Source: Cyanidioschyzon merolae (taxonomy: Eukaryota). Taken from it: 64,000 bases of DNA. Location: NCBI GenBank assembly GCA_000091205.1, contig AP006500.2, one strand, 5' to 3'. The notes below the pieces were generated by a model. The model made no database searches and was not told the DNA's origin. It worked only from the letters and a program-made list of their open reading frames with translations. The translations under genes and the position numbers were made by a program. Of this stretch, positions 34,901 through 53,673 are shown piece after piece (the first letter of the stretch is position 1; every line of letters starts with the position of its first letter).

Positions 34901-37900
34901 GAGCAGCGTTCGTTTCCCCATGAACAGTACCAGCAGTACCACTACGCCTTTCACGACGGGCGACAGGACGACGCTCCTCACGAGCGGGCAATTTAGCCGA
35001 GCTCAAACGCATTGGTGCATCGTCTGCATCACCGGCACCGGTACGCGTCACTAGTGCCACCAGACTGCCAACATAGCGTCGAGCGGCTGTCGCGGGACCT
35101 GTCACCATGTCGCTGACGTTCGCTCCTGTTGCAGCGCTGCGCTGTTCGCTTGCAGCCTCTGGCAAGCCCACCAGTCCGAGTGCCAGTCCAGCGGCCAGCG
35201 CATGCGCCTCACGGTCGCGACGGACACTCCAGGGCCAACCGCTGGTATTGTTGGTGTTGCTGGTGCCGGCTGCCGAGCCTGCGAAACCGCCACTCGCTGC
35301 CATCACTCCGGCACCAAGAGAACCGGTAGCAGGTGCAGCTGCACCTGTCGAAGCCGCAGCAGCAATGGAGGATGCCATCGCCACACCGGCTCCGTCGCAG
35401 AGTTCCACAAACAAACCCTCGAGGATAGCTTTGCGTCCACTGCAGGCAAACACAAGACCCATTGCCAACACTGCAGCGCTCTGAACCGCTGGTGATACAT
35501 CCCAGTCGGGTTGTGCAAATCCGGTAGGATTGAAGGCGCGAATATGCAGACCCGCCAGACGCGCAACCAACGCGTGCGCCGTGCCGCCGTACGAAGCCCC
35601 GAGTCCCAACAACAACGCGATGCTCGTCAGCTCATGTCGAGGTAACAGGTACGCATACCAGTCGGTAACCTGAAGCTGCCGCAAATGCCCGTGCAGACCC
35701 AGAGCCAAAACGAGTCCAGCGTGCGACGCAGTTGGTCGACTCGGCTTCTGTTGACGGATCCAGGCGCGAGTCACAGGGACCTGGGCGGTAAACGCCAGCT
35801 CCTGCTGCGCTGGCACACCACTCCGGGTCGCTGACGAGCCCCCAGATGCCTCGGGCGCGCCAGGGACTAGTCGACCGCGGATCCAGGTCGGAAAGCGAGT
35901 GCTGCTCGGCCGCAACCGCAGACCTGCTGCTACAGCGTTGTGGAACGCGCCCCATTCAAAGTAAGCAGCTGGTAGTACGCTAGCATCCAACTGGATGGGC
36001 GTCGATCGCTGCGGCAGTCGTCCGGAGAGCACCAACGGTGGCACCAGCAGCGTCTTGGTAGAGTCATCCACTGTTCCTGTCCAGGCGGTGAAAGCGCCTC
36101 GACCTATCGGGGCGGCGAGCGTGCGCTGTGCACTGGCAAAGAGCTGTGCTTGCACCTCGGATGGGGACAATAATGGCGACGACGACGACGACCCCAGTGT
36201 TGTTGTTTCGGTTGTTGCTGCAGTCGCTGCTGGATCAGGGTCGGTGAGCAACACGGGCACTGCCGAACGCAGCAGACGCTGGACTTGCCAGAGTCGTCGA
36301 TCAGCGCGAAACCGCAACCAGGGTATGATGCTGGTTAGTTCACAGCCATCGAGGTGATTCGGATGGACGACACCACGACCTCCCTGTTGTCGTCGTCGTC
36401 GTCGTCGACAACGGCGATCGTGATGATGATGGTGATAATCGTAGCGCTGCGGGATGGCATGCGTCGCAGCACTAGTTCCGGCAGCAGACGGGAACGAGCG
36501 TTCACGAGAGGGCCCAGGATCCGCCCTGAACAGCGCTACTGAATTGCCGTCGTCATCGACATCTTCATCATCGATGCCATCGTCATCGTCATCGATGTCG
36601 ATGTCGTCATCGTCGAGGAACAGCGCCCCTTCGACATCATCATCGTCATCATCGTCATCAGTGCCGTGGTGGTGGCGACGGTGGTGGTGTTCCGGATGCT
36701 TCGCTATAGCCAGCGCGGATGCAGAGCTCGACGGCATCCAGGCACGAAGAGGAGCAGCACCATTCGAGCTGCTTTTGGTGAAGGAGGAGGCAGCAACGCG
36801 CCCGGGTCCAGCGCTGGATGCATACAGGTCGCTCGTCACCTGAGCAGCAAAGCGCTCAACGGAAGGATTCAGCCACAGTCGAGAGGTGATGTTTGTTCCG
36901 AGCGCTTCACGGGACGCTGCCCCGCTCGCACGAGTCGCGCTGAACCAGGTAGCTCCCTGGACACTGCCGGAGCCCGCTCCAGTAGGCGAAAGGCCGCTCT
37001 GGAGGCGCAGCATCGCCATCTCTGGTTCGGGGAGCGCTGGGAGCCATCCCGCTACAGCTGCAGCACTAGAAACCACGCCAGCTGCCGCCAGCTCTGAATC
37101 AGCATCCGAATTGCCGGCACCAGGATGCACTTGTGGAGCGGGCTCGGAGCGCAGCCCCGCTAAAGCGTGTTGCAGCGGCAGTGCGATGCCCACTGGTAAG
37201 CGAGCGAGCGTACGCGCGTCAAGACGTATTCCCTCCTGGTGAAGGCTAACCAGTCCAGCGTCACAGGGATGCTGTAGCGGTACGGAAACCTCTGGTATAG
37301 CAGACTGCTCTGCTACAATCGTCTCGGTCGTGGAGTCCAGAGCAGCGGTTCCCACTGGACCAACACCAGCGTGCGCCGGCGACAGCTCAGTTGACGCTCC
37401 TGTGGATTCACCGGATGACGTCGATTGTTGACAGTGCTCTAGACGCTCGAAAAAAGTGACAAGTTGCGCAAGTCGAGCGACTGGATTCGGGAACTCATCT
37501 GGATGCCGGTCGTTCACGAACTCGCGCACCAGCGGTGCATCCAGTGGATGTCGCTCTGCAGAAAGACCAGAGGGAGCAGTGGAAAGCGTAGAAGCAAACG
37601 CGGCGGGAAACTGCGCCAGCATGTCCTTCGCGGGCCTGCAGCACGCTCTATCTGTTTTGTATATGCCCAGTAGTAATGGCAAACGATCCTGCAACCAGTC
37701 AAAGATGTTCAACGGTGCTTCCGAATCATCGGTGAGATATAAAGACGACTCCACGCGCTGCTGATTGCTCTGCTGATCGCTAATGCTGGCTACTTCCGCA
37801 TCCACCGGGAGGTGCAAAGACGTTTCCGCACCTTGTCCATTGTGCTGGTGATCGCATATCCGAGCTTCTTCCGGATCAGCGGTGCTGCTCCTTTCACTAG

Positions 37901-40900
37901 CCTTGTCCAGAGAGCGTGAATGTCGAAGCAAACTGGATGCTTCCAAGGACTCATCGCTTGAAGCAGGGTGCAATGTTCCCGAAGAAACACTCGAACGCTC
38001 ACATGATTCCGGCATATCGCGTTGATAGTACTCCCAGTAACGTAGAGCGTTTGCCGCTAGTGCCACTTTTTTCAGGAAATGATTCACGGACAGCAACGCT
38101 TGCCAATAGATTTGGTCGAGCTTGAATGCTTCGTAGAGGGTATGAAACGCCACCAGCAGCGATTTCCATGGAACTGTTTCAGGGAGCTGCGCACCAGCGT
38201 ACTGTAGCTCACAGCGTAGGCGTAGCAGACACTCGCCCGAAGCAGTACCGCTAGGTTCTGGTCCCGTTTCCCAGCAGAATGGGCAGCCTTTGACGCGCTC
38301 TGCACGTCTTGTCGTAACGACAGATGAGCCTTGCATTGGTGTTCCGCGGTAGCATCGCGAACAAGGTTGTTCCCTTGTCCTTGCATCGCAGGCAGCACGT
38401 CCAGTCGAAGGTGCCTCGGCGGCGGCGGCAGCAGCAGCAGCAGCAGCAGCAGTTGTAGTTGTAGCGGTCTCTGGCGTGCACTTGGCTGCATCGCTTCTAG
38501 TTGCTGTTGATGCTTTTGCTGTTCGTTGTTCTGTACTAACGCGCTCGTCACCGCGGTGACTTGCCGCCGACGAGCACGACCGCTCGCTGCCTCGCGTCCA
38601 GGGCGCCGACTGTGTCGCCAGTCGGAGTGGCGACAATGAAAGTTGACCTTGTGAATCGTGGATCGCTTCAGAGGCGCTCCCCGTGGCTATATGTTCGCGT
38701 TCAGGGACCAGTGACGAGTGCATCTCGTCGAAAGCGCTTGCCGAAATGTCCCAAAGCCAGCCGGGAAGTACGCCAGGCGCTGGTCGCGCGCTTGCCTTTA
38801 AAATACTTGTCTTTGGCGAGGACAAGTCCGGCACGCTTCGCCAGTGACTTGCGTCGGTGGGTGCAGCGCCACCGCTTGCCCGCTGTCCAGCATTACGACA
38901 ACTGCTGCTGCTGCTGCTGCTGCTGCTGCAAAACGTTCCCCGTTCTGGATAGCGCTGATGCATCCACTGGTGTCGATGAGGTTGCTGCAGAGCCCGCCAA
39001 AACGCATCCAATTGTTTTTCAAGTTCGTTTGAAGCGGTGCCTTGCGTCTCGGCAGCTTGGGGCCTCCAGACCTCCTCGATGAACGCCAGATAGATTTGCA
39101 TACTGACTGCCGCAGGCAGCGTTCTTCGACAAGCGCCCCAGAGCTGGTGCATAATCGGAAGCGGCTCACGGAGTAGACGACTCAAACAGACCCGATACTG
39201 TTGGCCATCTGCGAGCGTTAACGTGAAACGACACTTCACTGCATTGGCGAGCCAGACTGGTGCAGCTGTCTTACCGAGCAGCCGCAGATACCCGACGGGT
39301 TCAGCACCGAACTGGAGACGCAGTCGCGGCTTGGGCGTTCCCCCAAGGAGGACGAGCAGATCCAACATGCCGGGTCGCAAAGCCTCGACCGCCGCCATTG
39401 CCTGCACGCCACGTTGAACAAAGACAAGCTCCGCGCTCTTCATCAACCGCGGCTGTGCTGGCGTTGAAAAGAGCTCCAAGCCACGCAGCGTCTCACCAAT
39501 GAGCAGACACAGCAACGGTGAAATGTGCACGCCTCTTCCTCCGGCACCTGACCAGGGATGTGCGAAGCAGGCCGCTCGAAACGTATCGTTGGGGTCCACC
39601 AGACCCTGTTCCCAGACCAAAGCCAGTTGGACCGGCCCGCTATCGAACGTTGTATCGTTCTGCGTATCTCCGGTTGTTCGATCCTGCAGAAGATACACCC
39701 GAATGGTGTGGTGCTCGGTCGGCGACGACCTCGACGTTCCGTGACAGCGTTGCGTTACCAGCACTGGATAGCGAGCGTCCGTGAAAACAATGCGTTCCTG
39801 GATCTCGAGTTCTTCCAGTTCGTACGGCTCATTCAACGGATGCCACAGCACCAGTTTGCGTCCATCGGCGAGGGCAACTACCAGACCTCGCGGTAGCGCA
39901 TGAAGCGCCAGTATGACGGCACGAGCGGTCGGCATTGCTTCCATCATCATGGTCGTCATTGGAGGATACAAGCGACTGGAACTTGAGCCAGTCAACCTTT
40001 GGGTGCTCTCTCGCTGGACCCCGGTGAGCAGCGTTGACGTCTGCTCTGAAACTGCGGACTTGTGCAAGCCGCTCGGCAGACTCGCAACGCCACGTCGTGG
40101 ACCGCCTTGACTGAAGCTGTTCGAACCACCCTTCGCGACAAATGAGACACTATGCATCCTTCCGTCCTGCCAGTTGAATACTTGAAGTAGGCGACCAGCA
40201 TCCTGAACCGAGCACCAGCCGACAAAGGAGCGTGCGCCCTCCGCATCGGCTGCTGGTTGCCAAAGTGACCGCCCCGATCCAGGAGGTAGCTCCTCCGCCG
40301 AGGCGTCGCAAAAGTTCGCAAAAGCAGCCCACGCATGCATAGGTCCGAGCCGATCCCCGGCACTTGTCGGTACGTCGGAGCAGCACACTGCACATGCTGG
40401 GAAGCTTTGGGCTCCTCGCCGTACCGCGAACGCCTCGGCGTCCGTTTCGAACCAGGTATATCGAACGAGATCCGCAGATCGCCACTGTAAAGCCCAGGTC
40501 AAGTCCTTGGAAGCGTCGCCACCTCGGCTACGCTGTTTTGGATGCCAAACAAGCGCCTCTTCCGGTGCGCAGAGGAGGTTCTCCGAGTGGCCGCCTCGCG
40601 AGCTGCAGGAAAAGAACCAGACGCGGTCTGCGATGCCGTGCTGGTCCACCAAACGATAGAGGTAGTCACGATCGCTCCCCTGAGACAGTTCCAGGCAACC
40701 AGAGGCAGTGACGGACACAGGAATAGTCACATTCGCCATAAAGGCCGGCAGTGCAAGTCCAGCGCAGCGGTCCACCACGAAGAGCAGTTCTGTAGCAGAC
40801 TGGCGCCGCGCGTTACCGCCGCCAGTGGTGGTGCACGAGTCGCAACGACTCCAACGCGCGGGAAAACGGCTCGGAAGCGCTCGGTCATCAGCACAAAGCT

Positions 40901-40928
40901 TGTGTTGTGTGCCTGCGGGACTGGTCAC
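31953..40928 (-). CDS. Anaphase-promoting complex subunit 1 (APC1) homolog, expanded to 2991 aa
   Basis: A block of PC (proteasome/cyclosome) repeats typical of APC1/Rpn1/Rpn2: 'AGLVLALGLHGH', 'IALLLGLGASYGGTAH', 'AAVLAMGLVFACSGRKA', 'LAAGLALGLVGL', 'ARHLALGLVFLGGGTVALS'. The N-terminal region is beta-propeller-like. It carries large low-complexity insertions (D/H/A/S/T homopolymers, e.g. HHHRRHHHGTDDDDDDDDVEG...DDDDIDIDDDDDGIDDEDVDDDG). Confidence 0.65.
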   Translation of the reverse strand: MTSPAGTQHKLCADDRALPSRFPARWSRCDSCTTTGGGNARRQSATELLFVVDRCAGLALPAFMANVTIPVSVTASGCLELSQGSDRDYLYRLVDQHGIADRVWFFSCSSRGGHSENLLCAPEEALVWHPKQRSRGGDASKDLTWALQWRSADLVRYTWFETDAEAFAVRRGAQSFPACAVCCSDVPTSAGDRLGPMHAWAAFANFCDASAEELPPGSGRSLWQPAADAEGARSFVGWCSVQDAGRLLQVFNWQDGRMHSVSFVAKGGSNSFSQGGPRRGVASLPSGLHKSAVSEQTSTLLTGVQRESTQRLTGSSSSRLYPPMTTMMMEAMPTARAVILALHALPRGLVVALADGRKLVLWHPLNEPYELEELEIQERIVFTDARYPVLVTQRCHGTSRSSPTEHHTIRVYLLQDRTTGDTQNDTTFDSGPVQLALVWEQGLVDPNDTFRAACFAHPWSGAGGRGVHISPLLCLLIGETLRGLELFSTPAQPRLMKSAELVFVQRGVQAMAAVEALRPGMLDLLVLLGGTPKPRLRLQFGAEPVGYLRLLGKTAAPVWLANAVKCRFTLTLADGQQYRVCLSRLLREPLPIMHQLWGACRRTLPAAVSMQIYLAFIEEVWRPQAAETQGTASNELEKQLDAFWRALQQPHRHQWMHQRYPERGTFCSSSSSSSSSCRNAGQRASGGAAPTDASHWRSVPDLSSPKTSILKASARPAPGVLPGWLWDISASAFDEMHSSLVPEREHIATGSASEAIHDSQGQLSLSPLRLATQSAPWTRGSERSCSSAASHRGDERVSTEQRTAKASTATRSDAAKCTPETATTTTAAAAAAAAAAAEAPSTGRAACDARTREQPCSRCYRGTPMQGSSVVTTRRAERVKGCPFCWETGPEPSGTASGECLLRLRCELQYAGAQLPETVPWKSLLVAFHTLYEAFKLDQIYWQALLSVNHFLKKVALAANALRYWEYYQRDMPESCERSSVSSGTLHPASSDESLEASSLLRHSRSLDKASERSSTADPEEARICDHQHNGQGAETSLHLPVDAEVASISDQQSNQQRVESSLYLTDDSEAPLNIFDWLQDRLPLLLGIYKTDRACCRPAKDMLAQFPAAFASTLSTAPSGLSAERHPLDAPLVREFVNDRHPDEFPNPVARLAQLVTFFERLEHCQQSTSSGESTGASTELSPAHAGVGPVGTAALDSTTETIVAEQSAIPEVSVPLQHPCDAGLVSLHQEGIRLDARTLARLPVGIALPLQHALAGLRSEPAPQVHPGAGNSDADSELAAAGVVSSAAAVAGWLPALPEPEMAMLRLQSGLSPTGAGSGSVQGATWFSATRASGAASREALGTNITSRLWLNPSVERFAAQVTSDLYASSAGPGRVAASSFTKSSSNGAAPLRAWMPSSSASALAIAKHPEHHHRRHHHGTDDDDDDDDVEGALFLDDDDIDIDDDDDGIDDEDVDDDGNSVALFRADPGPSRERSFPSAAGTSAATHAIPQRYDYHHHHHDRRCRRRRRRQQGGRGVVHPNHLDGCELTSIIPWLRFRADRRLWQVQRLLRSAVPVLLTDPDPAATAATTETTTLGSSSSSPLLSPSEVQAQLFASAQRTLAAPIGRGAFTAWTGTVDDSTKTLLVPPLVLSGRLPQRSTPIQLDASVLPAAYFEWGAFHNAVAAGLRLRPSSTRFPTWIRGRLVPGAPEASGGSSATRSGVPAQQELAFTAQVPVTRAWIRQQKPSRPTASHAGLVLALGLHGHLRQLQVTDWYAYLLPRHELTSIALLLGLGASYGGTAHALVARLAGLHIRAFNPTGFAQPDWDVSPAVQSAAVLAMGLVFACSGRKAILEGLFVELCDGAGVAMASSIAAAASTGAAAPATGSLGAGVMAASGGFAGSAAGTSNTNNTSGWPWSVRRDREAHALAAGLALGLVGLPEAASEQRSAATGANVSDMVTGPATAARRYVGSLVALVTRTGAGDADDAPMRLSSAKLPAREERRPVARRERRSGTAGTVHGETNAAPGTHAATANAPVPHDVPGVLASGLTDGALGATTTRLQANVPGGAPTALGNEDDDDYNNGDDDGASYATTRLPTRAGYDSVTGTLGRGARLESRSGLEADDSWSSVRIGAEGETEQGRASSPSLSISSSFSTSSLFRAGITTSSMPAVDSGPQALLDPERIPSDASAAAVGALMALTVWYLRSNDEAMARKLGPPRSGQRALWLLRPELVLLRSLAAALIRWDAMSPSWDWMLSELPAPLAAQWQADRNREAAHRGDQPREENSTLRSQGLATGAGTSRISRWYVAVANDPVVPAETEQIESAARSSADLLGSGAPQRPAVVRLYMLLALTGQALAMALKLAGTAHPQARRILEKLLDLVDLRYTASANSSAAPWLLACIDNLSIAMAVVCAGHGTHSVYRRLRRLLCRRGATGIVAGLTSSGMAGATRPSTLSRTTSGETYGNHLARHLALGLVFLGGGTVALSSCHRLQTALLLAALYPRYPAAPSDNQYHLQALRHLYVLAAEARCFVTLDADTRTPCPVPVEVMMVSSTSTGTSNAVPVRYRDWTPCLLPALDSWHELVIRSPRYWSVSLSAEALREIEPLANTYLAYVVYVRRHAGHLSYLRDPHGVKGLTCRSLPLRYLAKAPSADWMQLFATDPVLSALFRYGLAFPGSPWSNASNPIPAASDDTVAPNLATEGIHRSPSTEDAFTTSTGEEAWRVSSARTASMGMHASSAHAWPPFGTRVPCVQASTAGNVVGDDQEIAFWRAALDLCLEADCTELWLLLVDALDAVRRGSVLQTACQRHRHRHRHTLWVGDLVLLQHWVGAAASRMPRAQRQTPLQRLERWCCSSVASLGASLEERLFRMVEAGAAGVPDRSLLVKRCRQYVRSGWSLVPEHVLYGHAVCLRWLQAPLRCALLPEYGALCQALRGIGSARGDSSIGSASAMQRRTCRASDSQRSMPMSDVHMRSMAERASADASWNEWALLVAWLPMLSEPETR

Positions 40929-41542
40929 CGATGAGCATGGTGCAGAGAACGAGGCTCCGGGAGCGCCTCCTGAGTGTTCTGTGGATGCAGCGGACGAGCG
41001 CGGCTTGGAACGATCCAGCAGGAGCGCACAGGTCCTCAGGGACGCTCGTTGCGTCCAGTTTTCTACGAAGCGAGTTTAGGCGAAATGCTGGGACAAGCGC
41101 CACGACTTGCAGTGCGGGCAGTACAGTGCACACACAGAGGCACCGCTCTACGGACGGAGACAACCTACGCGTGAACTCCAGGAAACCGGTAGAGGTCACT
41201 GGGGAAGCGCTGCGGCTTGGGGCAGGCACACGCGCTTTCCCGGGAGCGGTTCACGCTTCTCTGCAGCAGGATCGTACTTTTTCTGCAGGCACGCAAGCGT
41301 CTTCCGCTGGTGGCTCGCAGACGCCTCGTGCAGTTGCCGGTGCAGCAGCGCCAACTGCTGCGAGCGACTCCGATGGTGGAGCTGCTGCTTCGGAGACAGC
41401 GCAAGGTACCACACGTGCCAAGTTTGAGCAACAACCGCTTCCGTCGTCAGCGCACAGTGTATCGGGACGAACACTCAGCGGCCTAGCGTATTTGAAAGCC
41501 CTTTGGGCTGAATATCCCAAGCGAGGCTTTTGGGGTACCCTG

Positions 41543-41998
41543 ATGGCGATCCGTACCGGACGGGTGGGCATGTATGACACCTGCCTCGTTGGCATCGATG
41601 AGTTCGGAAACCGCTACTATGAAAATCGTGCAGCCAGCTACATGCGTGATCGCTGGTGTGAGTACAGGGACGGCAAAAACGCAGACCCAGTCTGTATACC
41701 GCCTGAGTGGCACGCGTGGCTCCACCATTTTGTGGATGATCCACCGGTGTCTGCAAACGACAAGTGGGTGCGTCCGTTGTTTGTGAAACCTCCGCATCCG
41801 AACTATTCCGGAACATCGCAGGCGTATGCGCCTCGGAATAGTCCCCGGAGCCCCGCGTACATTGGACATCTGGCGACTTCCGTGGTTGAGTCCTGGCAGG
41901 CGCAGACTACGCTACAGAGGCAGCGCAAGCCGCGGGCCTTAACTCCTGCCCGTGAAAAGACATCCCCAGAACCGGATCAGCGATTGGACTTGCCTTGA
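41543..41998 (+). CDS. NADH dehydrogenase [ubiquinone] 1 alpha subcomplex subunit 12 family (NDUFA12/B17.2, or its paralog NDUFAF2)
   Basis: 'CLVGIDEFGNRYYEN', 'RWCEY', and 'IPPEWHAWLHHFVDDPP' (cf. VPPEWHRWLHCMTDDPP). About 151 aa from MAIRTGR... (in frame, verified). The ORF extends upstream to 40907, overlapping the APC1 5' end, but that extension is low-complexity Ala/Ser/Arg and probably non-coding. Confidence 0.7.
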   Translation: MAIRTGRVGMYDTCLVGIDEFGNRYYENRAASYMRDRWCEYRDGKNADPVCIPPEWHAWLHHFVDDPPVSANDKWVRPLFVKPPHPNYSGTSQAYAPRNSPRSPAYIGHLATSVVESWQAQTTLQRQRKPRALTPAREKTSPEPDQRLDLP

Positions 41999-45583: not shown

Positions 45584-46666
45584 TTGACGGAGATGGCGTC
45601 TGGGTCGAACCTGTTTGCCGTCCTAAGTGACGAGACCGAAGGATCGCAGACAGAGGCTGCCCGCGCCAGCGAATCCAAGGAGAAGCGGCCTGGGGACCCG
45701 CCGAGCAGTGCCCGTGGCTCTGCCCAGAAGCACTTTGGGTTCGATCGACGATCAGGCACTGGACGTGGCCGTGAGGTTGCGAAAAAAGGTGCTGGAGGCA
45801 AGTATACTTTCGGTTCAGTGGAGGAGGACGTGCGTGACGCTCTGAGCGGTGTCAGGATTGCCTCCGAGTCAGATGCTGCTGCAGCGGACGGCACAGAAAA
45901 AGACGACGTGAACCACGTTGGTGAAAGCAAGAGCAGTGAAGGTGCCCTTCTTAGTCTGGAGGAGTATCAGCAGCGTTTAGAGCGGGAGCGAGCAGAGCTC
46001 TCGAACAAATTGATGGCAAGCAAAGGACCCCGTCGTCCAGCAGAGGAGCAGGGCGATGAAGTCTTTCGCAATGCCAAGCGCCTAGATAAGAACGGCGTTG
46101 AAGTGGATGCGGACTCACAGGACGGACTCCTGGGGAGCATAAGCCTCAAGGAGAAGAAAACGCGTGCTGCCAATCGCAGCAGTGGAAAAGGCAAGCGGGA
46201 TACCGGAAAGGAGAATCTTGCAGCGGAGTTCTTCACGGCTCCGCCGCGCGTGAACCGCGGCCATCGAGCGTCCGGTGACGTCGTCGAAGAGGATAATCCC
46301 TTAAGAGCGAAGAGATCTACTGGCACAGAGGCAGCTGGACCCAGTCGCGGTCGTGGACGTGGTCGCGGCGGTGGAAGTCGAGGGTTCCGCGGGGCGGGCG
46401 CCCGACACCCGACAGCGCCACATGCGTCAGAAAGCGCAGTCAGGGACAAACATAATGCATCTGATAACCATGAAACCCAAGAGCCGAATCGAGGTGTGTC
46501 AAGTCGACAACAACGTACGCGTGGCGGTTCTCGCACTGGCGCTGCGCCCGATAGCGGTCGTTTTCGTGGGCGCGGACGAGGTGGGGCTGCTTCTGTAACC
46601 GCACCACGCCCTCGTGCCGCCATTAACACCACAGATGATGCTGCTTTTCCATCGTTGGGAGCTTGA
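45584..46666 (+). CDS. Stm1 / HABP4-SERBP1-like RGG-box mRNA- and ribosome-associated protein
   Basis: N-terminal Stm1_N-like motif 'SNLFAVLSDE' (cf. NxFxLLxDD). The protein is highly charged and low in complexity, with C-terminal RGG/RGR repeats 'SRGRGRGRGGGSRGFRGAGA' and 'GRFRGRGRGG'. Size (360 aa) and architecture match SERBP1/PAI-RBP1/Stm1. Confidence 0.55.
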   Translation: MTEMASGSNLFAVLSDETEGSQTEAARASESKEKRPGDPPSSARGSAQKHFGFDRRSGTGRGREVAKKGAGGKYTFGSVEEDVRDALSGVRIASESDAAAADGTEKDDVNHVGESKSSEGALLSLEEYQQRLERERAELSNKLMASKGPRRPAEEQGDEVFRNAKRLDKNGVEVDADSQDGLLGSISLKEKKTRAANRSSGKGKRDTGKENLAAEFFTAPPRVNRGHRASGDVVEEDNPLRAKRSTGTEAAGPSRGRGRGRGGGSRGFRGAGARHPTAPHASESAVRDKHNASDNHETQEPNRGVSSRQQRTRGGSRTGAAPDSGRFRGRGRGGAASVTAPRPRAAINTTDDAAFPSLGA

Positions 46667-48570: not shown

Positions 48571-48776
48571 AGCAAACCAAACGTTCGTTGATATGGGCTA
48601 GCGATGACGCTGTCCTTAACCAGAAAAATAAAGCAAGCTACGAAAAGACTGACGTTCCAACACCAACAACAGCAACAACAACAACAACAACAACGCAACG
48701 GTAGCGAAGCGCTCGTGGCTCGCCTTCGTGGGCATCCCCCGAGTACGCGATCGCAGAGCGCTGCTTCTCATAACCG

Positions 48777-48832
48777 GTGCGCGTGCCGCAGCAGCCGCCC
48801 TTTTGGTGGCTGCTGGGAGCGCCTGTGCGGAG

Positions 48833-48868
<36 letters not shown>

Positions 48869-50162
48869 CGCTGTTGCTGTGTCTATGGCCTCTCAGGGCA
48901 CTGAAACTGCCAATGAAACGCATTTGACGACGCGCCAGACCTCGACAATGCACTGGCACGTCTGGCGAACTGAGGTGGAGCGACTGCGACGACTGGTCAA
49001 GGAGCCGGCGCTCAAGTGGCCGAAGCTGTTGGTGCTCGACCTCAACGGATTGTTGGTTTGGCGGACGCCGTTGCGACCTCGCCCCGGGCAACGCGATGGT
49101 CCCATCGGGGCTTGCTATCAACGGCAGCCGGATGTGGTGACTAAGCGTTTCTGCATTTGGCGCCGACCTGGAGCGGTATCCTTTATGCGGTACGTTTTGG
49201 CTTGGTTCCACGTCGGGATATGGTCGACCGCCCAGCTGCCGAACGTGGAGGATATTTTGGCAACGCTTCTCACAGCAGAGCAAAGACGTGAGCTGGTATT
49301 CGTTATGGACCAAAAAGACTGCACCAAGGTCAGCCGGGCGTATGCCCCGGGCTCTTCCAGCAAACCGCTGATGTTGAAGGACCTGGAACGCCTGTGGAGT
49401 CGATATCAGGGTTTCTACCATATGGATAACACGTTGCTCATCGACGATGATCCCTACAAAGCGAGCGTCAACCCAGTATATACGAGCGTGCACCCGTCTC
49501 CATGGAAAGATCCCGATGTGCAGGGCACGGACACGTTTCTGTGCGAAGGGGGACGCTTTCGTGCGTTTCTGGAAGCGCTGCTCCACCATGACGGCAGCGT
49601 ACGTACGTTCGTCGCCAACCAGCAGATCATACCCGTAGAGCAAACGAGCAACGATGATGAACGAGGCGCTACCAATGATGCCCAGCTGCTGAGCGATACC
49701 GGTGCAGTGAGCACAAGTCTCGGTTCCAGAGCTGGGTTCGATCAGGAGCTGAGCACTGCCGATCCCAACCGATCGACTGGTGCCCAGTCTGTGACGGCAA
49801 AGTGTTTCGTGGGCGCACCAGCATGCGCACATGATGGTGAATCGAAGACCAGTGAGCCAAGCGCTCGGGATGATATCCTTTCAACGTCAACGGGATTGGA
49901 CGGCCCCGAGAAAGACGCACCCGCCAAAACAGCGTCCATGGATGCACTGGTGCCCTCGTTTTCGAATGAGCTTTCACGATTGCGTATCCATGACAAAAAT
50001 GAGGATGTTGGGGATGATACACGAATTCATGCGCAAGCGAATGGGCTAGCGGCATGCTCGTGCTCGATGCCATCGGTCTCGAGTACACCAGCGGATGCCG
50101 ATAAAACCAGCCGGCGTGACTCTGGGGAGACTTCACCAAACGCTGGAGCAGCGTCGCGCTAG
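48777..50162 (+). CDS. NIF/FCP1-homology (CTD-small-phosphatase-like) HAD-family domain protein with an atypical first motif
   Basis: FCP1-homology core: 'KLLVLDLNGLLVWR' (position of the canonical DxDxT, but reading D-L-N-G), 'FMRYVLAWFHVGIWSTAQLPNVEDIL', 'KDLERLWS', 'HMDNTLLIDDDPYKASVNP'. The long C-terminal tail is Ser/Thr/Asp-rich. The ORF begins with a Ser13 run encoded by (AGC)n; the start is probably MASQGTE at 48885. Confidence 0.65.
48831..48866. repeat. (AGC)n trinucleotide tract at the 5' end of the NIF-like ORF
   Basis: Direct read 'agcagcagcagcagcagcagcagcagcagcagc'. A nearby (CAA)n/(CAG)n tract at ~48655-48700 encodes polyQ in an upstream small ORF. Confidence 0.9.

Positions 50163-50455: not shown

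Positions 50456-50493
<38 letters not shown>
50451..50493. repeat. (CAG)n microsatellite, ~14 units, intergenic
   Basis: Direct read 'cagcagcagcagcagcagcagcagcagcagcagcagc'. Confidence 0.9.
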
Positions 50494-51193: not shown

Positions 51194-52249
51194 TTGTGCA
51201 GCGCACTCGTTCCTCGTACACAGATAAGGCTGTTTGTGAGGCCTACCTCAGACCCAGTGCTGTGCGTTGCTGCCAGTGCGTCACGCGCTGTTCACTGTTC
51301 GAAGCGCGCGGGTGCCGTTGCTCACCATAGAAGCGAGACGAGGGCGGGTGCGTGGACTGCACCCAACCACATGTATATAGTCTGCGTGCACCAACGAAGG
51401 ACGCAACCGAGGCGGTGGTTCGTGCTGCGTGCCAGCACGCCTCAGGTTGCAACGGATAACTTGAAGGTTGATACGCAGCCTCGCCGAACGTCAGCCGCCC
51501 GGGCGGTTGCAACGCAGCCGTGTCTGGTTCTGCCTGGTTTGGGAAACGCTGCCAGCGACTACGCGGAACTGCTTGGTCTGTTACCCGCGGGGTCACTGGT
51601 TGTACCAGTTGCTCGCTATGACTGGTTTCGAAACGCCCGGGGCCTGATGTTGCCAGCGTACTGGCGGGGTACGCTCAAGCCTCGGCAAGTTATGGACTGG
51701 TATTTCGAACGACTAGAACGAACGCTATTGCAGTTGAGCTACGCTTTTGGCGACGAGACCGGTGACTGGGGTGTGAATCTGATCGGACACTCTGCCGGTG
51801 GCTGGTTGGCACGACTCTACGTGAGTGAGTTCGCCAGCGACGACCTTCGGAAGCGCGTACGCACTGTCGTCACGTTGGGCACACCAAACCTGGCACCACC
51901 AGCTGGTGTATTCGACCAAACCAGGGGTATTCTTGCGTATTTGGAGACACAGTATTCGTGGAAGCACCGCCAACATTCCGGTGTTCGCTACACGTGTGTT
52001 GGATCCAAAGCGGTCCGCGGGCGGCTCTGGTCGAGCAACCTTGAGGAAATGATCGCTTATGCCTCTTACTGGCCAGTGTGCGGTCGCGGGCGTGTGGCTG
52101 GTGATGGGATTGTGCCAGCGTGTTCCTCGTTTATGCGCGGGGCTCAGGCTATTCTCCTAGCGGATGCGAGGCACTCGCCGTTGACGGACCCTAAAAACTG
52201 GTACGGGTCACCGCATCACTTCGAATGCTGGGCGAGCGCTTTGGTCTGA
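51194..52249 (+). CDS. Alpha/beta-hydrolase fold protein (serine-hydrolase type, GxSxG)
   Basis: 'PCLVLPGLGNAASDYAELL' (pre-nucleophile region), nucleophile elbow 'NLIGHSAGGWLARLYV', and downstream 'VVTLGTPNLAPPAG'. The N-terminal ~90 aa of the ORF are not protein-like, so the start is probably an internal Met (e.g. MYIVCVHQ...). Confidence 0.6.
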   Translation: MCSALVPRTQIRLFVRPTSDPVLCVAASASRAVHCSKRAGAVAHHRSETRAGAWTAPNHMYIVCVHQRRTQPRRWFVLRASTPQVATDNLKVDTQPRRTSAARAVATQPCLVLPGLGNAASDYAELLGLLPAGSLVVPVARYDWFRNARGLMLPAYWRGTLKPRQVMDWYFERLERTLLQLSYAFGDETGDWGVNLIGHSAGGWLARLYVSEFASDDLRKRVRTVVTLGTPNLAPPAGVFDQTRGILAYLETQYSWKHRQHSGVRYTCVGSKAVRGRLWSSNLEEMIAYASYWPVCGRGRVAGDGIVPACSSFMRGAQAILLADARHSPLTDPKNWYGSPHHFECWASALV

Positions 52250-52665: not shown

Positions 52666-53673
52666 CTATTGAGTACGGCAGCGATTCGGATGCACTGGAG
52701 GATTCTTTTCAAAAGAAGTGCTACTTTTGGCCGCATCAGGATCACTTAGGGACCCGTCCGGACTAGCCGCGGCAGCTTCACCACAAAGAACGTCAAGGAA
52801 ACTTGCTATTTCTTCCGCGCTGGGGCGCTTTTCTGGATCCAGATCCCAGCAGCGTTCAATCAGTGCCACGACAGAGGCCGGCACCTTGTCACTCGTCTTG
52901 ACGAGACGTGGCCGCAAATTTTTCGACACGACTGCCGTCGCAGTCTGCACTGGCGTGAGATAGGTGTCCTCGTATGGCATTATGCCAGTCAGCAGCTCGT
53001 TGAAAAGAATCCCATAACTGTAAATATCTGCGCGACCGTCGTAGCGCTCACCGCGAATCACCTCCGGTGCCATGAAGCGATACGTCCCCGTCAGCGCCGT
53101 CATGACAGCCTCGCTATCGCCCTGCGTTCGGCTTACCCCAAAGTCGGAAAGTTTCGCAACGCGTGCGGGTCGGTCCACGAGCACATTGCTCGACTTGAGG
53201 TCGCGGTGGATGAGATCGTGTGCGTGAATGTACGCCAAGGCTCGGGCGACGTCGCGCATGATTCGATACACAAGTTGGGGTCGTCGTGAAACCCACTTAC
53301 GACGTCTGGAGATGGGCCCTCCTTCAAACAGTTCCATCACGAGAAACTTGCTCCCATCAGACGGGCGTACACCCCAACCGTAGTAGTTGAGAATATTGGG
53401 GTGCCAGTCCAGTTTACCAAGCACAACCTCCAACTCTGTCCGAAACGTATACTGCGTCTCGCGCCTAGCGTCAGCGTTTAACATTTTCACCGCAACCGGC
53501 CGCTTTTCGTAGGTACCCTCGTACACGATGGTCTCCGTGCCGCGACCCAGCTCGTTCCCAAGCGTGATGGCTTCCCACGGAATCTGCTTCTGTTTAAGCC
53601 GCTCCCTCGGAGATAACTGGACTGCTTCAATATCGTCTGTCATGAAATCAAAAGCACACGTCACACAACACAA
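52666..53673 (-). CDS. Protein kinase (Ser/Thr or dual-specificity; TKL/MLK-like)
   Basis: Gly-loop 'LGRGTETIVYEG', VAIK-type 'VAVKML', 'HPNILNYYG', catalytic loop 'IHRDLKSSNVLVD', 'LSDFGVSR', 'GTYRFMAPEV', 'DIYSYGILFNELLTG', 'RPSAEEI'. Confidence 0.85.
   Translation of the reverse strand: MCCVTCAFDFMTDDIEAVQLSPRERLKQKQIPWEAITLGNELGRGTETIVYEGTYEKRPVAVKMLNADARRETQYTFRTELEVVLGKLDWHPNILNYYGWGVRPSDGSKFLVMELFEGGPISRRRKWVSRRPQLVYRIMRDVARALAYIHAHDLIHRDLKSSNVLVDRPARVAKLSDFGVSRTQGDSEAVMTALTGTYRFMAPEVIRGERYDGRADIYSYGILFNELLTGIMPYEDTYLTPVQTATAVVSKNLRPRLVKTSDKVPASVVALIERCWDLDPEKRPSAEEIASFLDVLCGEAAAASPDGSLSDPDAAKSSTSFEKNPPVHPNRCRTQ

What the first reader, a model, noticed from the sequence alone, without database searches (positions are those of the whole stretch)
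48777..50162. FCP1/NIF-type HAD phosphatase with the catalytic DxDx(T/V) replaced by DLNG, a candidate pseudophosphatase
The FCP1-homology domain aligns (LVLDL-, FMRYVLAWFHVGIWSTAQ, KDLERLW, HMDNTLLIDDDP), but the second Asp of the nucleophile motif, which acts as general acid/base in HAD phosphatases, is Asn and the following Thr/Val is Leu. TIM50 and some CTDSPL-like proteins are known inactive scaffolds of this fold, so this may be another non-catalytic NIF-domain protein. The long S/T/D-rich tail suggests that it is itself a regulated phospho-target.
Basis: partly seen in the sequence, partly recalled or inferred. Interest (0 to 1): 0.5.

Follow-up and report, generated by a model that had tools for sequence, protein, structure and literature searches.

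The report
Conserved DxNG-type NIF phosphatase-like protein
This red-alga gene belongs to an old, widespread and functionally untested family of phosphatase-like proteins that all carry asparagine where ordinary relatives have a catalytic aspartate; the odd motif is therefore a family hallmark, not a defect of this gene.

Summary
The ORF is Cyanidioschyzon merolae 10D XP_005538392.1, a "hypothetical protein". Its real start is ATG 48885 (425 aa), not GTG 48777. It has a clear NIF/FCP1-homology domain (Pfam E 3e-12; AF2 pLDDT 92; Foldseek hits to SCP1/2/3, CTDNEP1, TIM50, UBLCP1). LDLNG aligns to the LDLDE/LDIDY motif of the solved enzymes, so Asn54 sits at the general acid/base position.

It is neither a private mutation nor a sequencing error. 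In 302 non-redundant relatives (red algae, land plants, mosses, stramenopiles, Picozoa, trypanosomatids, a giant virus), the +2 residue is Asn in 291 of 295 and never Asp. The Asp nucleophile, motif II Ser/Thr, motif III Lys and both motif IV Asp are each ≥97% conserved.

The TIM50-like "dead scaffold" analogy therefore fits poorly. The phosphate/Mg2+ site appears to be under strong selection, with Asn itself selected. Whether the protein binds phospho-ligands with little turnover or hydrolyses unusual substrates cannot be decided here.

A 2026 paper already lists fungal DXNXT NIF proteins as candidate pseudophosphatases. This gene is therefore a new member of a known but uncharacterised kind, and the family's range is much wider than "fungal-specific". 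The S/T/D-rich tail is disordered and poorly conserved. Interest is moderate.

The parts
48885..50162 (+). Coding sequence (425 aa plus stop) of the NIF-domain protein, identical to C. merolae 10D XP_005538392.1 / BAM82356.1
Evidence: First in-frame ATG; 425/425 identity to P0013.
48834..48869 (+). (AGC)12 trinucleotide repeat upstream of the ATG. It encodes the poly-Ser of the over-extended ORF and is probably 5' leader.
   Evidence: Tandem Repeats Finder; the annotated protein starts downstream of it.
48927..48995 (+). N-terminal alpha-helix (aa 15-37, ...WRTEVERLRRLVKEP) preceding the core domain; conserved among Cyanidiales orthologs
   Evidence: AF2 full-length model, H15-37 with pLDDT ~57-75; alignment.
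49020..49622 (+). NIF / FCP1-homology HAD core domain (aa ~46-246)
   Evidence: Pfam PF03031 E 3.1e-12. AF2 pLDDT >90 across the core. Foldseek hits to SCP2/SCP1/CTDNEP1/TIM50/UBLCP1/Fcp1 at E 3e-10 to 1e-6.
49035..49049 (+). Motif I variant L51-D52-L53-N54-G55: Asp52 at the nucleophile position and Asn54 (AAC 49044-49046) at the general acid/base position
   Evidence: Profile alignments to UBLCP1 LDIDY and SCP1 DLDE. Asn in 291/295 family members and Asp in none.
49221..49229 (+). Motif II W113-S114-T115 (Ser/Thr that binds the phosphoryl group in HAD enzymes)
   Evidence: Aligns with IWSAT of UBLCP1 and FTAS of SCP1. S/T in 297/298 members.
49377..49379 (+). Motif III Lys165 (KDLERLW)
   Evidence: Aligns with VKDLSRL of SCP1 and VKPLGVIW of UBLCP1. 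Lys in 297/301 members.
49440..49475 (+). Motif IV and family-specific extension I186-D187-D188-D189-P-Y-K192-A-S-V-N196-P197. D187/D188 are the Mg2+-ligand positions; K192 and N196-P197 are subfamily signatures.
   Evidence: Aligns with LILDNSPAS of SCP1 and IMFDDIRRN of UBLCP1. D 301/302, D 295/302, K 299/302; N and P near-invariant.
49635..50159 (+). C-terminal tail (aa 251-425): acidic, Ser/Thr-rich, predicted intrinsically disordered, poorly conserved
   Evidence: pLDDT <50 for nearly all of aa 261-411; composition; unalignable tails in orthologs.
49959..49988 (+). Short hydrophobic motif F-SNE-L-SR-L-R-I (aa 359-368) in the tail. It is the only tail segment shared with Cyanidiococcus-like orthologs and fits a class-1a NES-like spacing.
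   Evidence: Alignment columns 587-600 (V-NDQ-I-AQ-L-Y-I in P0002, L-SDR-M-TH-L-D-I in P0003); regex. Its function is inferred only.

Best explanation
Shown: the gene encodes the C. merolae ortholog of an ancient subfamily of FCP/SCP-type (NIF) HAD domains found in many eukaryotic lineages. The subfamily signature is LD(L/V/I)-N-G-(L/V/I)-L in place of DxDx(T/V), plus W-S/T-S, K, and DD-x-P-Y-K-x3-N-P. The protein has an N-terminal helix, a well-folded NIF core closest in sequence to UBLCP1, and a disordered acidic tail. It has no UBL domain, transmembrane segment or zinc finger.

Inferred mechanism: the domain still assembles a complete Mg2+/phosphoryl-binding pocket (Asp52, Ser114/Thr115, Lys165, Asp187, Asp188). 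It lacks the carboxylate that protonates the leaving group and activates water. It would therefore bind a phosphorylated ligand but turn over ordinary phospho-Ser/Thr esters very slowly, if at all. In effect it would be a naturally occurring 'substrate-trap' or phospho-reader that regulates its partner by binding or shielding, with Asn54 hydrogen-bonding the phosphoryl or leaving group.

The only experimental pointer comes from the probable trypanosome member (NIF + CCCH zinc finger), which behaves as an mRNP-granule-associated post-transcriptional repressor. A role on phosphoproteins of RNA or transcription machinery is therefore plausible, but it is not shown for the alga.
For: Identity and fold.

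Family signature and constraint: all 7 first-round homologs have LDLNG. In 175 domains from the 150 best 50%-identity cluster representatives, and in 302 non-redundant proteins, Asn at +2 is 291/295 with no Asp. The nucleophile Asp is 289/295, motif II S/T 297/298, Lys 297/301, and the motif IV Asp residues 301/302 and 295/302. These are among the lowest-entropy columns of the family.

Internal control: in tandem-NIF plant and moss proteins, the second domain varies at +2 (S/G/D) and also at the second motif IV Asp (N/T/I).

A DxNxT lipin mutant still bound Mg2+ and tungstate in crystals (bioRxiv 10.1101/2025.06.16.660012). From my own knowledge, not tested here: D+2-to-Asn mutants of Scp1, Fcp1 and Dullard are used as phosphatase-dead forms.

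Fungal DXNXT NIF proteins have been listed as candidate pseudophosphatases (PMC13216928).

Trypanosome members combine LDLNGVL with a CCCH finger. Tb927.9.14120, a NIF-like phosphatase with a CCCH motif, is reported as a post-transcriptional repressor in tethering screens and as a component of nuclear-periphery and stress granules (PMC10415143).
Against: No member has been assayed, to my knowledge. Conservation of the whole pocket is equally what one expects of a working enzyme. The invariance of Asn, rather than any non-acidic residue, could reflect a catalytic role. LHPP, a HAD enzyme with Ser at +2, is active on P-N bonds and pyrophosphate (PMC11277029), so loss of Asp+2 does not by itself mean inactivity. 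I could not inspect model coordinates, so a compensating acid near the site (for example Tyr191 or Asp189) is not excluded. Equating the T. brucei sequence P0315 with Tb927.9.14120 is an inference from its description (NIF + CCCH, a chromosome-sized contig), not a verified identity. The alga's protein lacks the zinc finger.
Confidence: 0.42

Rival explanations
1. It is a working Asp-nucleophile phosphohydrolase or phosphotransferase with altered chemistry. Without a general acid it would act on substrates with good or self-protonating leaving groups: phosphohistidine/phospholysine, acyl phosphates, or pyrophosphate/polyphosphate-type anhydrides such as RNA 5' polyphosphate ends. Alternatively it forms a long-lived phospho-Asp52 that serves as a switch, as in P-type ATPases where Thr occupies +2.
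For: The complete catalytic pocket, including the nucleophile, is under near-absolute conservation across distant eukaryotic lineages. Asn itself is invariant, which suggests a positive role. An additional family-specific invariant Lys (DDxPYK, 299/302) follows motif IV. LHPP is a precedent: Ser at +2, yet active on phospholysine, phosphohistidine, PPi and imidodiphosphate (PMC11277029). The CCCH fusion and the mRNA decapping-complex association of the probable trypanosome member fit a nucleic-acid-linked substrate.
Against: There is no biochemical data. D+2-to-Asn changes in canonical NIF enzymes are used as inactivating mutations (my own knowledge). The proximity of the extra Lys to the active site was not verified, because no coordinates were available.
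Confidence: 0.3
2. It is an ordinary phospho-Ser/Thr (CTD-type or UBLCP1-type) protein phosphatase in which another residue, or the substrate itself, replaces Asp+2 as proton donor. The motif change would then have little functional consequence.
For: The fold and all other motifs are canonical. The closest solved relative by sequence is the active enzyme UBLCP1 (E 5.5e-14). Databases annotate some members as 'protein-serine/threonine phosphatase', but those names are automatic.
Against: Among 295 family members none has Asp at +2. If Asp and Asn were interchangeable, some reversion would be expected over this evolutionary depth. Position +4 has also changed, from Thr/Val to Leu/Val/Ile.
Confidence: 0.13
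3. It is an inactive structural scaffold like fungal TIM50. The fold is kept for protein-protein contacts and the former active site has no role.
For: Asp+2 is lost. TIM50 shows that the fold can be reused non-catalytically (PMC13216928). TIM50 structures are among the Foldseek hits.
Against: The pocket residues are among the best conserved columns of the family, unlike Tim50, which lacks the DXDX residues. Sequence similarity to TIM50 is marginal (E 0.008, motif I region not even aligned) compared with UBLCP1 at 5.5e-14. There is no transmembrane segment (maximum 19-residue hydropathy 0.99). The UniRef name 'TIM50' is an automatic label that is also applied to plant and trypanosome members.
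Confidence: 0.12
4. It is a sequencing error, a strain-private mutation or a decaying pseudogene.
For: GAC to AAC is a single transition.
Against: Asn is present in all 13 cluster members from independent assemblies and in the Cyanidiococcus and Cyanidium orthologs. The reading frame is intact and identical to the RefSeq protein. The signature is family-wide.
Confidence: 0.01

Closest known systems
S. pombe 'uncharacterized FCP1 homology domain-containing protein C1271.03c' and the fungal 'HAD-type NIF' DXNXT candidate pseudophosphatase group (ACS Omega 2026, PMC13216928)
   Same: Both are stand-alone NIF domains with Asp-x-Asn-x in motif I, and both are uncharacterised biochemically. NCBI names a plant member of the present family (P0213) 'C1271.03c-like'. 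The paper describes the group by the same substitution.
   Different: The paper gives the fungal motif as DXNXT and calls the group fungal-specific. Here +4 is Leu/Val/Ile in about 99% of members, and the family spans red algae, land plants, stramenopiles, Picozoa, kinetoplastids and a giant virus. I retrieved no fungal sequence, so direct homology to the fungal group rests on the name and the motif.
UBLCP1 (ubiquitin-like domain-containing CTD phosphatase 1; PDB 3SHQ)
   Same: It is the closest solved relative by sequence profile (E 5.5e-14, 55 bits). Both share the I-W-S motif II, the ...W after motif III and NT-x-x-x-DD in motif IV.
   Different: UBLCP1 has a canonical D-I-D-Y-T motif I and an N-terminal ubiquitin-like domain. 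The alga's protein has D-L-N-G-L and no UBL domain (Pfam finds NIF only).
SCP1/CTDSP1, SCP2, SCP3, CTDNEP1 (small CTD phosphatases, Dullard)
   Same: Same fold (Foldseek E 3e-10 to 1e-8, TM-score up to 0.78 normalised to the target). Motifs I-IV align.
   Different: They carry DLDET, with Asp98 assisting catalysis (PMC7281111). Sequence identity is only 16-20%. The alga's protein has a longer insertion after motif I and the DDxPYK extension.
TIM50 / TIMM50
   Same: Same NIF fold and a non-canonical motif I. The UniRef automatic name for this protein is 'TIM50'.
   Different: Tim50 is a membrane-anchored presequence receptor whose fungal forms lack the DXDX residues altogether. This protein has no transmembrane segment, keeps the nucleophile and all other pocket residues, and matches TIM50 only marginally in sequence.
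LHPP (HAD, NagD clade)
   Same: A HAD enzyme that naturally lacks Asp at +2 (it has Ser there) yet keeps the nucleophile (PMC11277029). It is a mechanistic precedent, not a relative.
   Different: It has a different HAD cap type (C2) and no NIF insertion, and it is reported to act on small molecules.
Trypanosoma brucei NLI-interacting-factor-like phosphatase with CCCH motif (Tb927.9.14120)
   Same: The T. brucei family member P0315 (XP_827607.1) has LDLNGVL, the DDSP-x-K motif and a CCCH finger. It probably corresponds to this gene, which is reported as a post-transcriptional repressor and RNA-granule protein.
   Different: It carries a CCCH zinc finger and a different tail. The identity of P0315 with Tb927.9.14120 was not verified. 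The alga's protein shares only ~25-33% identity with trypanosomatid members.

Membership tests
NIF / FCP1-homology domain (Pfam PF03031), HAD superfamily | Significant match to the family profile above the curated threshold | tested here: met
   46.9 bits vs cutoff 21.8, E 3.1e-12, profile positions 1-139 of 160.
NIF / FCP1-homology domain (Pfam PF03031), HAD superfamily | Rossmann-like HAD core with the SCP/FCP-type beta insertion after motif I | tested here: met
   AF2 model pLDDT 92, pTM 0.88. The top 32 Foldseek PDB hits are all SCP1/2/3, CTDNEP1, TIM50, UBLCP1 or Fcp1.
NIF / FCP1-homology domain (Pfam PF03031), HAD superfamily | Motif I nucleophile Asp at the end of beta-strand 1 | tested here: met
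   Asp52 aligns with the first Asp of DLDE (SCP1) and DIDY (UBLCP1).
NIF / FCP1-homology domain (Pfam PF03031), HAD superfamily | Motif I second Asp (general acid/base, nucleophile +2) and Thr/Val at +4: DxDx(T/V) | tested here: not met
   Asn54 and Leu56. No alternative DxDx[TV] lies in the folded domain.
NIF / FCP1-homology domain (Pfam PF03031), HAD superfamily | Motif II Ser/Thr, motif III Lys, motif IV acidic pair | tested here: met
   S114/T115, K165 and D187-D188 align with the corresponding SCP1/UBLCP1 residues.
NIF / FCP1-homology domain (Pfam PF03031), HAD superfamily | Mg2+-dependent phospho-Ser/Thr phosphatase activity | not testable with these tools
   Needs recombinant protein assays.
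DxNG NIF subfamily ('C1271.03c-like'; fungal 'HAD-type NIF' DXNXT group) | Motif I of the form hydrophobic-D-(L/V/I)-N-G | tested here: met
   LDLNG. Asn in 291/295 and Gly in 291/295 of relatives.
DxNG NIF subfamily ('C1271.03c-like'; fungal 'HAD-type NIF' DXNXT group) | Subfamily-specific motif IV extension DD-x-P-Y-K-x3-N-P and W-S/T-S motif II | tested here: met
   IDDDPYKASVNP and IWST; column counts.
DxNG NIF subfamily ('C1271.03c-like'; fungal 'HAD-type NIF' DXNXT group) | Thr at +4 (DXNXT as written for the fungal group) | tested here: not met
   Leu56. Only 1 of 295 best domains has Thr.
DxNG NIF subfamily ('C1271.03c-like'; fungal 'HAD-type NIF' DXNXT group) | Direct sequence homology to the fungal members (S. 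pombe, Aspergillus, Neurospora, Talaromyces EEA18937.1) | not tested
   No fungal sequence was returned among the listed hits. The link is indirect: the NCBI name 'C1271.03c-like' for P0213 and the motif description in PMC13216928.
TIM50 | N-terminal presequence plus a single transmembrane anchor before the NIF-like domain | tested here: not met
   Maximum Kyte-Doolittle 19-residue mean is 0.99; there is no hydrophobic segment.
TIM50 | Closest similarity to TIM50 among NIF proteins | tested here: not met
   TIM50 chains score E 0.008 and cover only part of the domain. They are absent at E <= 0.001 with the larger profile, where UBLCP1 scores 5.5e-14.
UBLCP1 | N-terminal ubiquitin-like domain plus a canonical DxDxT NIF domain | tested here: not met
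   Pfam finds only NIF. Motif I is DLNGL.

The most novel reading that the evidence does not exclude
The DxNG NIF proteins form a catalytically competent, very old (possibly LECA-age) enzyme class that has never been assayed. The Asp nucleophile would work without a general acid, with the invariant Asn and an extra invariant Lys shaping the site for high-energy or P-N phospho-substrates: protein phosphohistidine/phospholysine, acyl phosphates, or pyrophosphate/RNA 5'-polyphosphate ends. Alternatively the site holds a long-lived phospho-Asp as a switch. This would make them a missing class of eukaryotic 'labile-phosphate' phosphatases in algae, plants, fungi and kinetoplastids, with no animal member seen among the named hits here.
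Probability: 0.25. Interest if true: 0.75.

Novelty: new member of a known kind. Interest (0 to 1): 0.38.

Why it matters
This single gene is an ordinary ortholog of a conserved family, already in RefSeq as a hypothetical protein, so it changes little on its own.

The family-level picture is more useful. At least 452 50%-identity cluster representatives score E<1e-30. The 302 relatives examined in detail keep every phosphate- and metal-binding residue of a HAD phosphatase while fixing Asn at the general acid/base position. That is hard to reconcile with a dead scaffold, and it contradicts the recent description of the group as fungal-specific.

The family is a well-defined, experimentally tractable target. 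C. merolae is genetically tractable (my own knowledge), and the domain models with high confidence. It could be used to ask whether 'pseudophosphatase' calls based on one motif residue are right, and whether NIF domains have an unrecognised substrate class.

Tried and rejected
- A single-sequence phmmer search against PDB found nothing relevant (only a spurious TnsE hit, E 0.94). Profiles were needed.
- The afdb50 fold library was unavailable, so no AlphaFold DB annotation transfer was possible.
- Model coordinates are not exposed, so I could not measure whether Tyr191, Asp189 or Lys192 approach the phosphate site.
- Literature searches for plant and fission-yeast gene identifiers, for plant SSP/CPL motif variants and for Scp1 D98 mutant kinetics gave nothing usable. 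The Scp1/Fcp1 D+2 mutant statements therefore rest on my own knowledge.
- Supplements of PMC13216928 are not held. The text of Kramer 2010 (PMC2873481) contains no gene identifiers or NIF mention, so P0315 = Tb927.9.14120 could not be verified.
- DADKT (aa 404-408) was considered as an alternative DxDxT and rejected, because it lies in the disordered, unconserved tail.
- The TIM50 identity implied by UniRef names was rejected.
- Plant fusions of the domain with DUF724, ASF1+BMT5 or PPR repeats were not used as functional evidence, because they may be merged gene models.
- The full-length AF2 run, intended to see whether the tail motif docks on the domain, gave only low confidence for the tail, so there is no evidence for docking.
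- The antisense ORF 48768-49832 (354 aa) has no Pfam match and is treated as a by-product of G+C-rich sequence.
Full report
**1. What is in the sequence**

The window is eukaryotic: about 55-60% G+C, with trinucleotide repeats. Translation from the first in-frame ATG at 48885 gives 425 aa. This is 100% identical to Cyanidioschyzon merolae strain 10D XP_005538392.1 / BAM82356.1, "hypothetical protein, conserved". The GTG start at 48777 is therefore an artefact of a bacterial-code ORF list. The poly-Ser stretch it adds is encoded by the (AGC)12 repeat at 48834-48869, which is probably 5' leader.

Pfam NIF (PF03031) matches at E 3.1e-12, 46.9 bits, against a curated cutoff of 21.8.

**2. Is the Asn really at the catalytic position?**

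Profiles built from the protein and its relatives align L-D52-L-N54-G with three solved enzymes:

- L-D-I-D-Y-T of UBLCP1 (3SHQ; E 6.6e-10 with 7 sequences, 5.5e-14 with 44)
- (I)-D-L-D-E-T of SCP1
- L-D-L-D-E-T of CTDNEP1

The same alignments match the other motifs as follows:

| Window residues | SCP1 | UBLCP1 |
|---|---|---|
| I-W-S114-T115 | F-T-A-S | I-W-S-A-T |
| K165-D-L | V-K-D-L-S-R-L | V-K-P-L |
| I-D187-D188-D-P | L-D-N-S-P | F-D-D-I-R |

An AlphaFold2 model of aa 24-262 built on 44 sequences is confident (pLDDT 92.1, pTM 0.88). Its 32 best Foldseek matches in the PDB are all SCP1/2/3, CTDNEP1, TIM50, UBLCP1 or Fcp1.

Asp52 (GAC, 49038-49040) is at the nucleophile position. Asn54 (AAC, 49044-49046) is at the +2 position, where Asp98 of CTDSP1 assists catalysis (PMC7281111). 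Position +4 is Leu, not Thr/Val. The only other D-x-D-x-[TV] string is DADKT at aa 404-408. It lies in the disordered, unconserved tail and is a chance match.

**3. Private change or family trait?**

The first database search returned close orthologs in Cyanidiococcus (73% identity) and Cyanidium (52%), plus distant relatives including a Leishmania protein. LDLNG is invariant in all of them. Twelve further sequences of the same 90% cluster, from independent assemblies, keep Asn. One has LDLNE. This excludes a sequencing error.

A profile search of 1.84 billion cluster representatives found 8023 relatives at E<=1e-3 and 452 at E<=1e-30. In the domains of the best 150, the motif is LD(L/V/I)NG(L/V/I/F)L almost without exception. 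A second, word-indexed search added named proteins.

Counting the best domain of 302 non-redundant proteins gives the following:

| Position | Residue | Count |
|---|---|---|
| Nucleophile | Asp | 289/295 |
| +2 | Asn | 291/295 (Asp 0) |
| +3 | Gly | 291/295 |
| +4 | Leu/Val/Ile/Phe | 293/295 (Thr 1) |
| Motif II | Ser/Thr | 297/298 |
| Motif III | Lys | 297/301 |
| Motif IV, first | Asp | 301/302 |
| Motif IV, second | Asp | 295/302 |
| Subfamily-specific (DD-x-P-Y-K) | Lys | 299/302 |

These positions are among the lowest-entropy columns of the family.

One caveat applies. The query profiles were built from DLNG proteins, so the ranking favours this clade. However, one residue contributes only a few bits, while family members score 140-350 bits.

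**4. Who has it**

Named members come from these groups:

- red algae
- many land plants, including mosses and Selaginella
- Nannochloropsis
- Picozoa and MMETSP/Tara marine protists
- trypanosomatids: Leishmania, Lotmaria, Trypanosoma brucei, T. vivax, T. theileri
- one giant-virus metagenome-assembled genome

Source names are automatic and contradictory: "TIM50", "UBLCP1", "HAD superfamily protein", "FCP1 homology domain-containing protein C1271.03c-like". The last of these points to the uncharacterised S. pombe Swiss-Prot entry.

A 2026 survey of fungal pseudophosphatases (PMC13216928) describes a "HAD-type NIF" group with a "noncanonical DXNXT motif". It reports the group in S. pombe, Aspergillus, Neurospora and Talaromyces, absent from S. 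cerevisiae and humans, and calls it fungal-specific. The kind of protein is thus already on record as a candidate pseudophosphatase. The present data show a far wider distribution. I did not retrieve a fungal sequence, so the equivalence rests on the motif and on the NCBI name.

**5. What the conservation pattern says**

Fungal Tim50 lacks the DXDX(T/V) residues and has no activity (PMC13216928). It is also membrane-anchored.

This protein differs on each point. It has no hydrophobic segment. It matches TIM50 only marginally in sequence (E 0.008, motif I not aligned). It keeps every residue that binds Mg2+ and the phosphoryl group in HAD phosphatases.

The family also supplies its own picture of a diverged domain. 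In tandem-NIF proteins of mosses and plants, the first domain keeps D-x-N-G and DD. The second often has S, G or D at +2 and N, T or I at the second motif IV Asp.

The single domain of the alga follows the constrained pattern. I conclude that the pocket is functional and that Asn is selected as such. This is an inference from conservation, not a measurement.

**6. Mechanism: what is shown and what is inferred**

Shown:

- the fold
- the residue identities at the motif positions
- the family-wide constraint
- the absence of extra domains in the alga's protein
- a disordered tail (full-length AF2: core pLDDT >90, aa ~261-411 <50)

Inferred: a site with Asp52, Ser114/Thr115, Lys165 and Asp187/188 can still bind Mg2+ and a phosphoryl group. 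A lipin engineered to DxNxT did bind Mg2+ and Mg2+-tungstate in crystals. Without the +2 carboxylate, protonation of an alkoxide leaving group and activation of water should both be poor. From my own knowledge, D+2-to-Asn variants of Scp1, Fcp1 and Dullard are used as inactive forms.

My preferred reading (0.42) is a phospho-ligand binder with little or no turnover on ordinary phospho-Ser/Thr, a natural substrate trap that acts by binding or shielding.

The main rival (0.30) is a working enzyme on substrates that need no general acid, or a phospho-Asp switch. LHPP, a HAD enzyme with Ser at +2, is active on P-N bonds and PPi (PMC11277029). It shows that loss of Asp+2 need not mean inactivity. 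The invariance of Asn, and the extra invariant Lys after motif IV, fit this rival at least as well.

Three further rivals rank lower:

- An ordinary phosphatase with a compensating proton donor (0.13) is disfavoured, because not one of 295 members has reverted to Asp.
- A dead scaffold gets 0.12.
- Error or pseudogene gets 0.01.

**7. Functional hints from relatives**

Trypanosomatid members carry a CCCH zinc finger after the domain. Pfam detects it in P0007, P0030, P0057 and P0127. A CCCH-spacing pattern is present in 12 of the 13 sequences examined, all except the T. vivax P0094, and these include T. brucei XP_827607.1.

A T. brucei "NLI-interacting factor-like phosphatase" with a CCCH motif, Tb927.9.14120, is reported with the following properties (PMC10415143; PMC6326799):

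- a post-transcriptional repressor in tethering screens
- a component of nuclear-periphery and starvation stress granules
- a protein whose association with the decapping enzyme ALPH1 depends on the ALPH1 N-terminal region

XP_827607.1 is probably that gene, but I could not verify the identifier. This links one branch of the family to mRNA metabolism. It cannot be transferred to the alga, whose protein lacks the finger. Fission-yeast deletion phenotypes cited in PMC13216928 are mild stress sensitivities.

**8. The tail and the surroundings**

The C-terminal 175 aa are 23% Ser+Thr and 16% Asp+Glu. They are predicted disordered and essentially unalignable with the orthologs. The exception is a short hydrophobic motif at aa 359-368, F-x3-L-x2-L-x-I, which has counterparts in the two Cyanidiococcus-like sequences. 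Nothing beyond composition supports "regulated phospho-target".

The neighbouring ORFs encode unrelated functions:

| Window coordinates | Strand | Best Pfam match |
|---|---|---|
| 51194-52249 | + | alpha/beta hydrolase |
| 52666-53673 | - | protein kinase |
| 45584-46666 | + | HABP4/PAI-RBP1-like protein |
| 40907-41998 | + | NDUFA12 |
| 31953-40928 | - | ~3000-aa APC1-like protein |

In a eukaryote these give no functional linkage.

**9. Verdict**

The motif change is real and conserved, but it defines an old, constrained subfamily rather than marking a decayed enzyme, and the TIM50 analogy is weak.

The kind is already known: an uncharacterised Swiss-Prot family, with fungal DXNXT NIF "pseudophosphatases" described in 2026. 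I therefore rate this gene as a new member of a known kind.

Interest is moderate (0.38). The gene itself is ordinary. The family, however, is a clean and untested case in which the "pseudophosphatase" label may be wrong, and the alga offers a simple system to test it.

Noticed in passing
L001:3001-3444 (IMGVR_UViG_GVMAG-M-3300018416-26_000001, 125 kb contig): A giant-virus metagenome-assembled genome encodes a DLNG-type NIF domain (LIVLDLNGLL ... VRPY..F ... IGIWSC ... LLIDNS), 31% identical to the alga's domain. The subfamily therefore also occurs in Nucleocytoviricota-like genomes.
   Followed up: partly
Related proteins P0020-P0027 (mosses and plants): These are tandem duplications of the DxNG NIF domain. 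The first copy keeps D-x-N-G and DD. The second copy often has S/G/D at +2 and N/T/I at the second motif IV Asp, so it looks like a genuinely degenerated partner domain.
   Followed up: partly
Related proteins P0007, P0030, P0050, P0057, P0063, P0111, P0127, P0315 (trypanosomatids): A CCCH zinc finger lies 200-290 residues downstream of the LDLNGVL motif. The T. brucei member probably corresponds to the RNA-granule repressor Tb927.9.14120 described in PMC10415143.
   Followed up: partly
window 49959-49988 (aa 359-368): F-SNE-L-SR-L-R-I in the disordered tail is the only tail segment shared with the Cyanidiococcus-like orthologs (V-NDQ-I-AQ-L-Y-I and L-SDR-M-TH-L-D-I). Its spacing fits a class-1a nuclear export signal.
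   Followed up: partly
window 48658-48694, 48834-48869, 50456-50493: Three trinucleotide repeats of about 12 units each, (CAA)12, (AGC)12 and (GCA)12.7, flank the gene. The second lies just upstream of the ATG and creates the poly-Ser of the over-extended ORF.
   Followed up: partly
window 31953-40928 (-): A very long ORF (2991 aa) has only a weak APC1 beta-sandwich domain match (E 2.7e-6). It is probably the anaphase-promoting complex subunit 1 homolog.
   Followed up: no
window 51194-52249 (+) and 52666-53673 (-): The downstream neighbours are an alpha/beta hydrolase with weak PGAP1 / palmitoyl-thioesterase-like matches and a protein kinase (Pkinase E 4e-50). The kinase is adjacent but on the opposite strand. 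I found no evidence of functional linkage.
   Followed up: no
Cluster member P0012 (metagenome contig, 2609 bp): One environmental variant of the same protein has LDLNE instead of LDLNG (Gly55 to Glu) and is otherwise identical to P0009. It could be a polymorphism or an assembly error.
   Followed up: no
Database names of family members: UniRef automatically names many members of this subfamily 'Mitochondrial import inner membrane translocase subunit TIM50', and NCBI names some 'ubiquitin-like domain-containing CTD phosphatase 1'. For the window protein both names fail the membership tests run here; other members were not checked individually. This looks like a systematic annotation error.
   Followed up: yes
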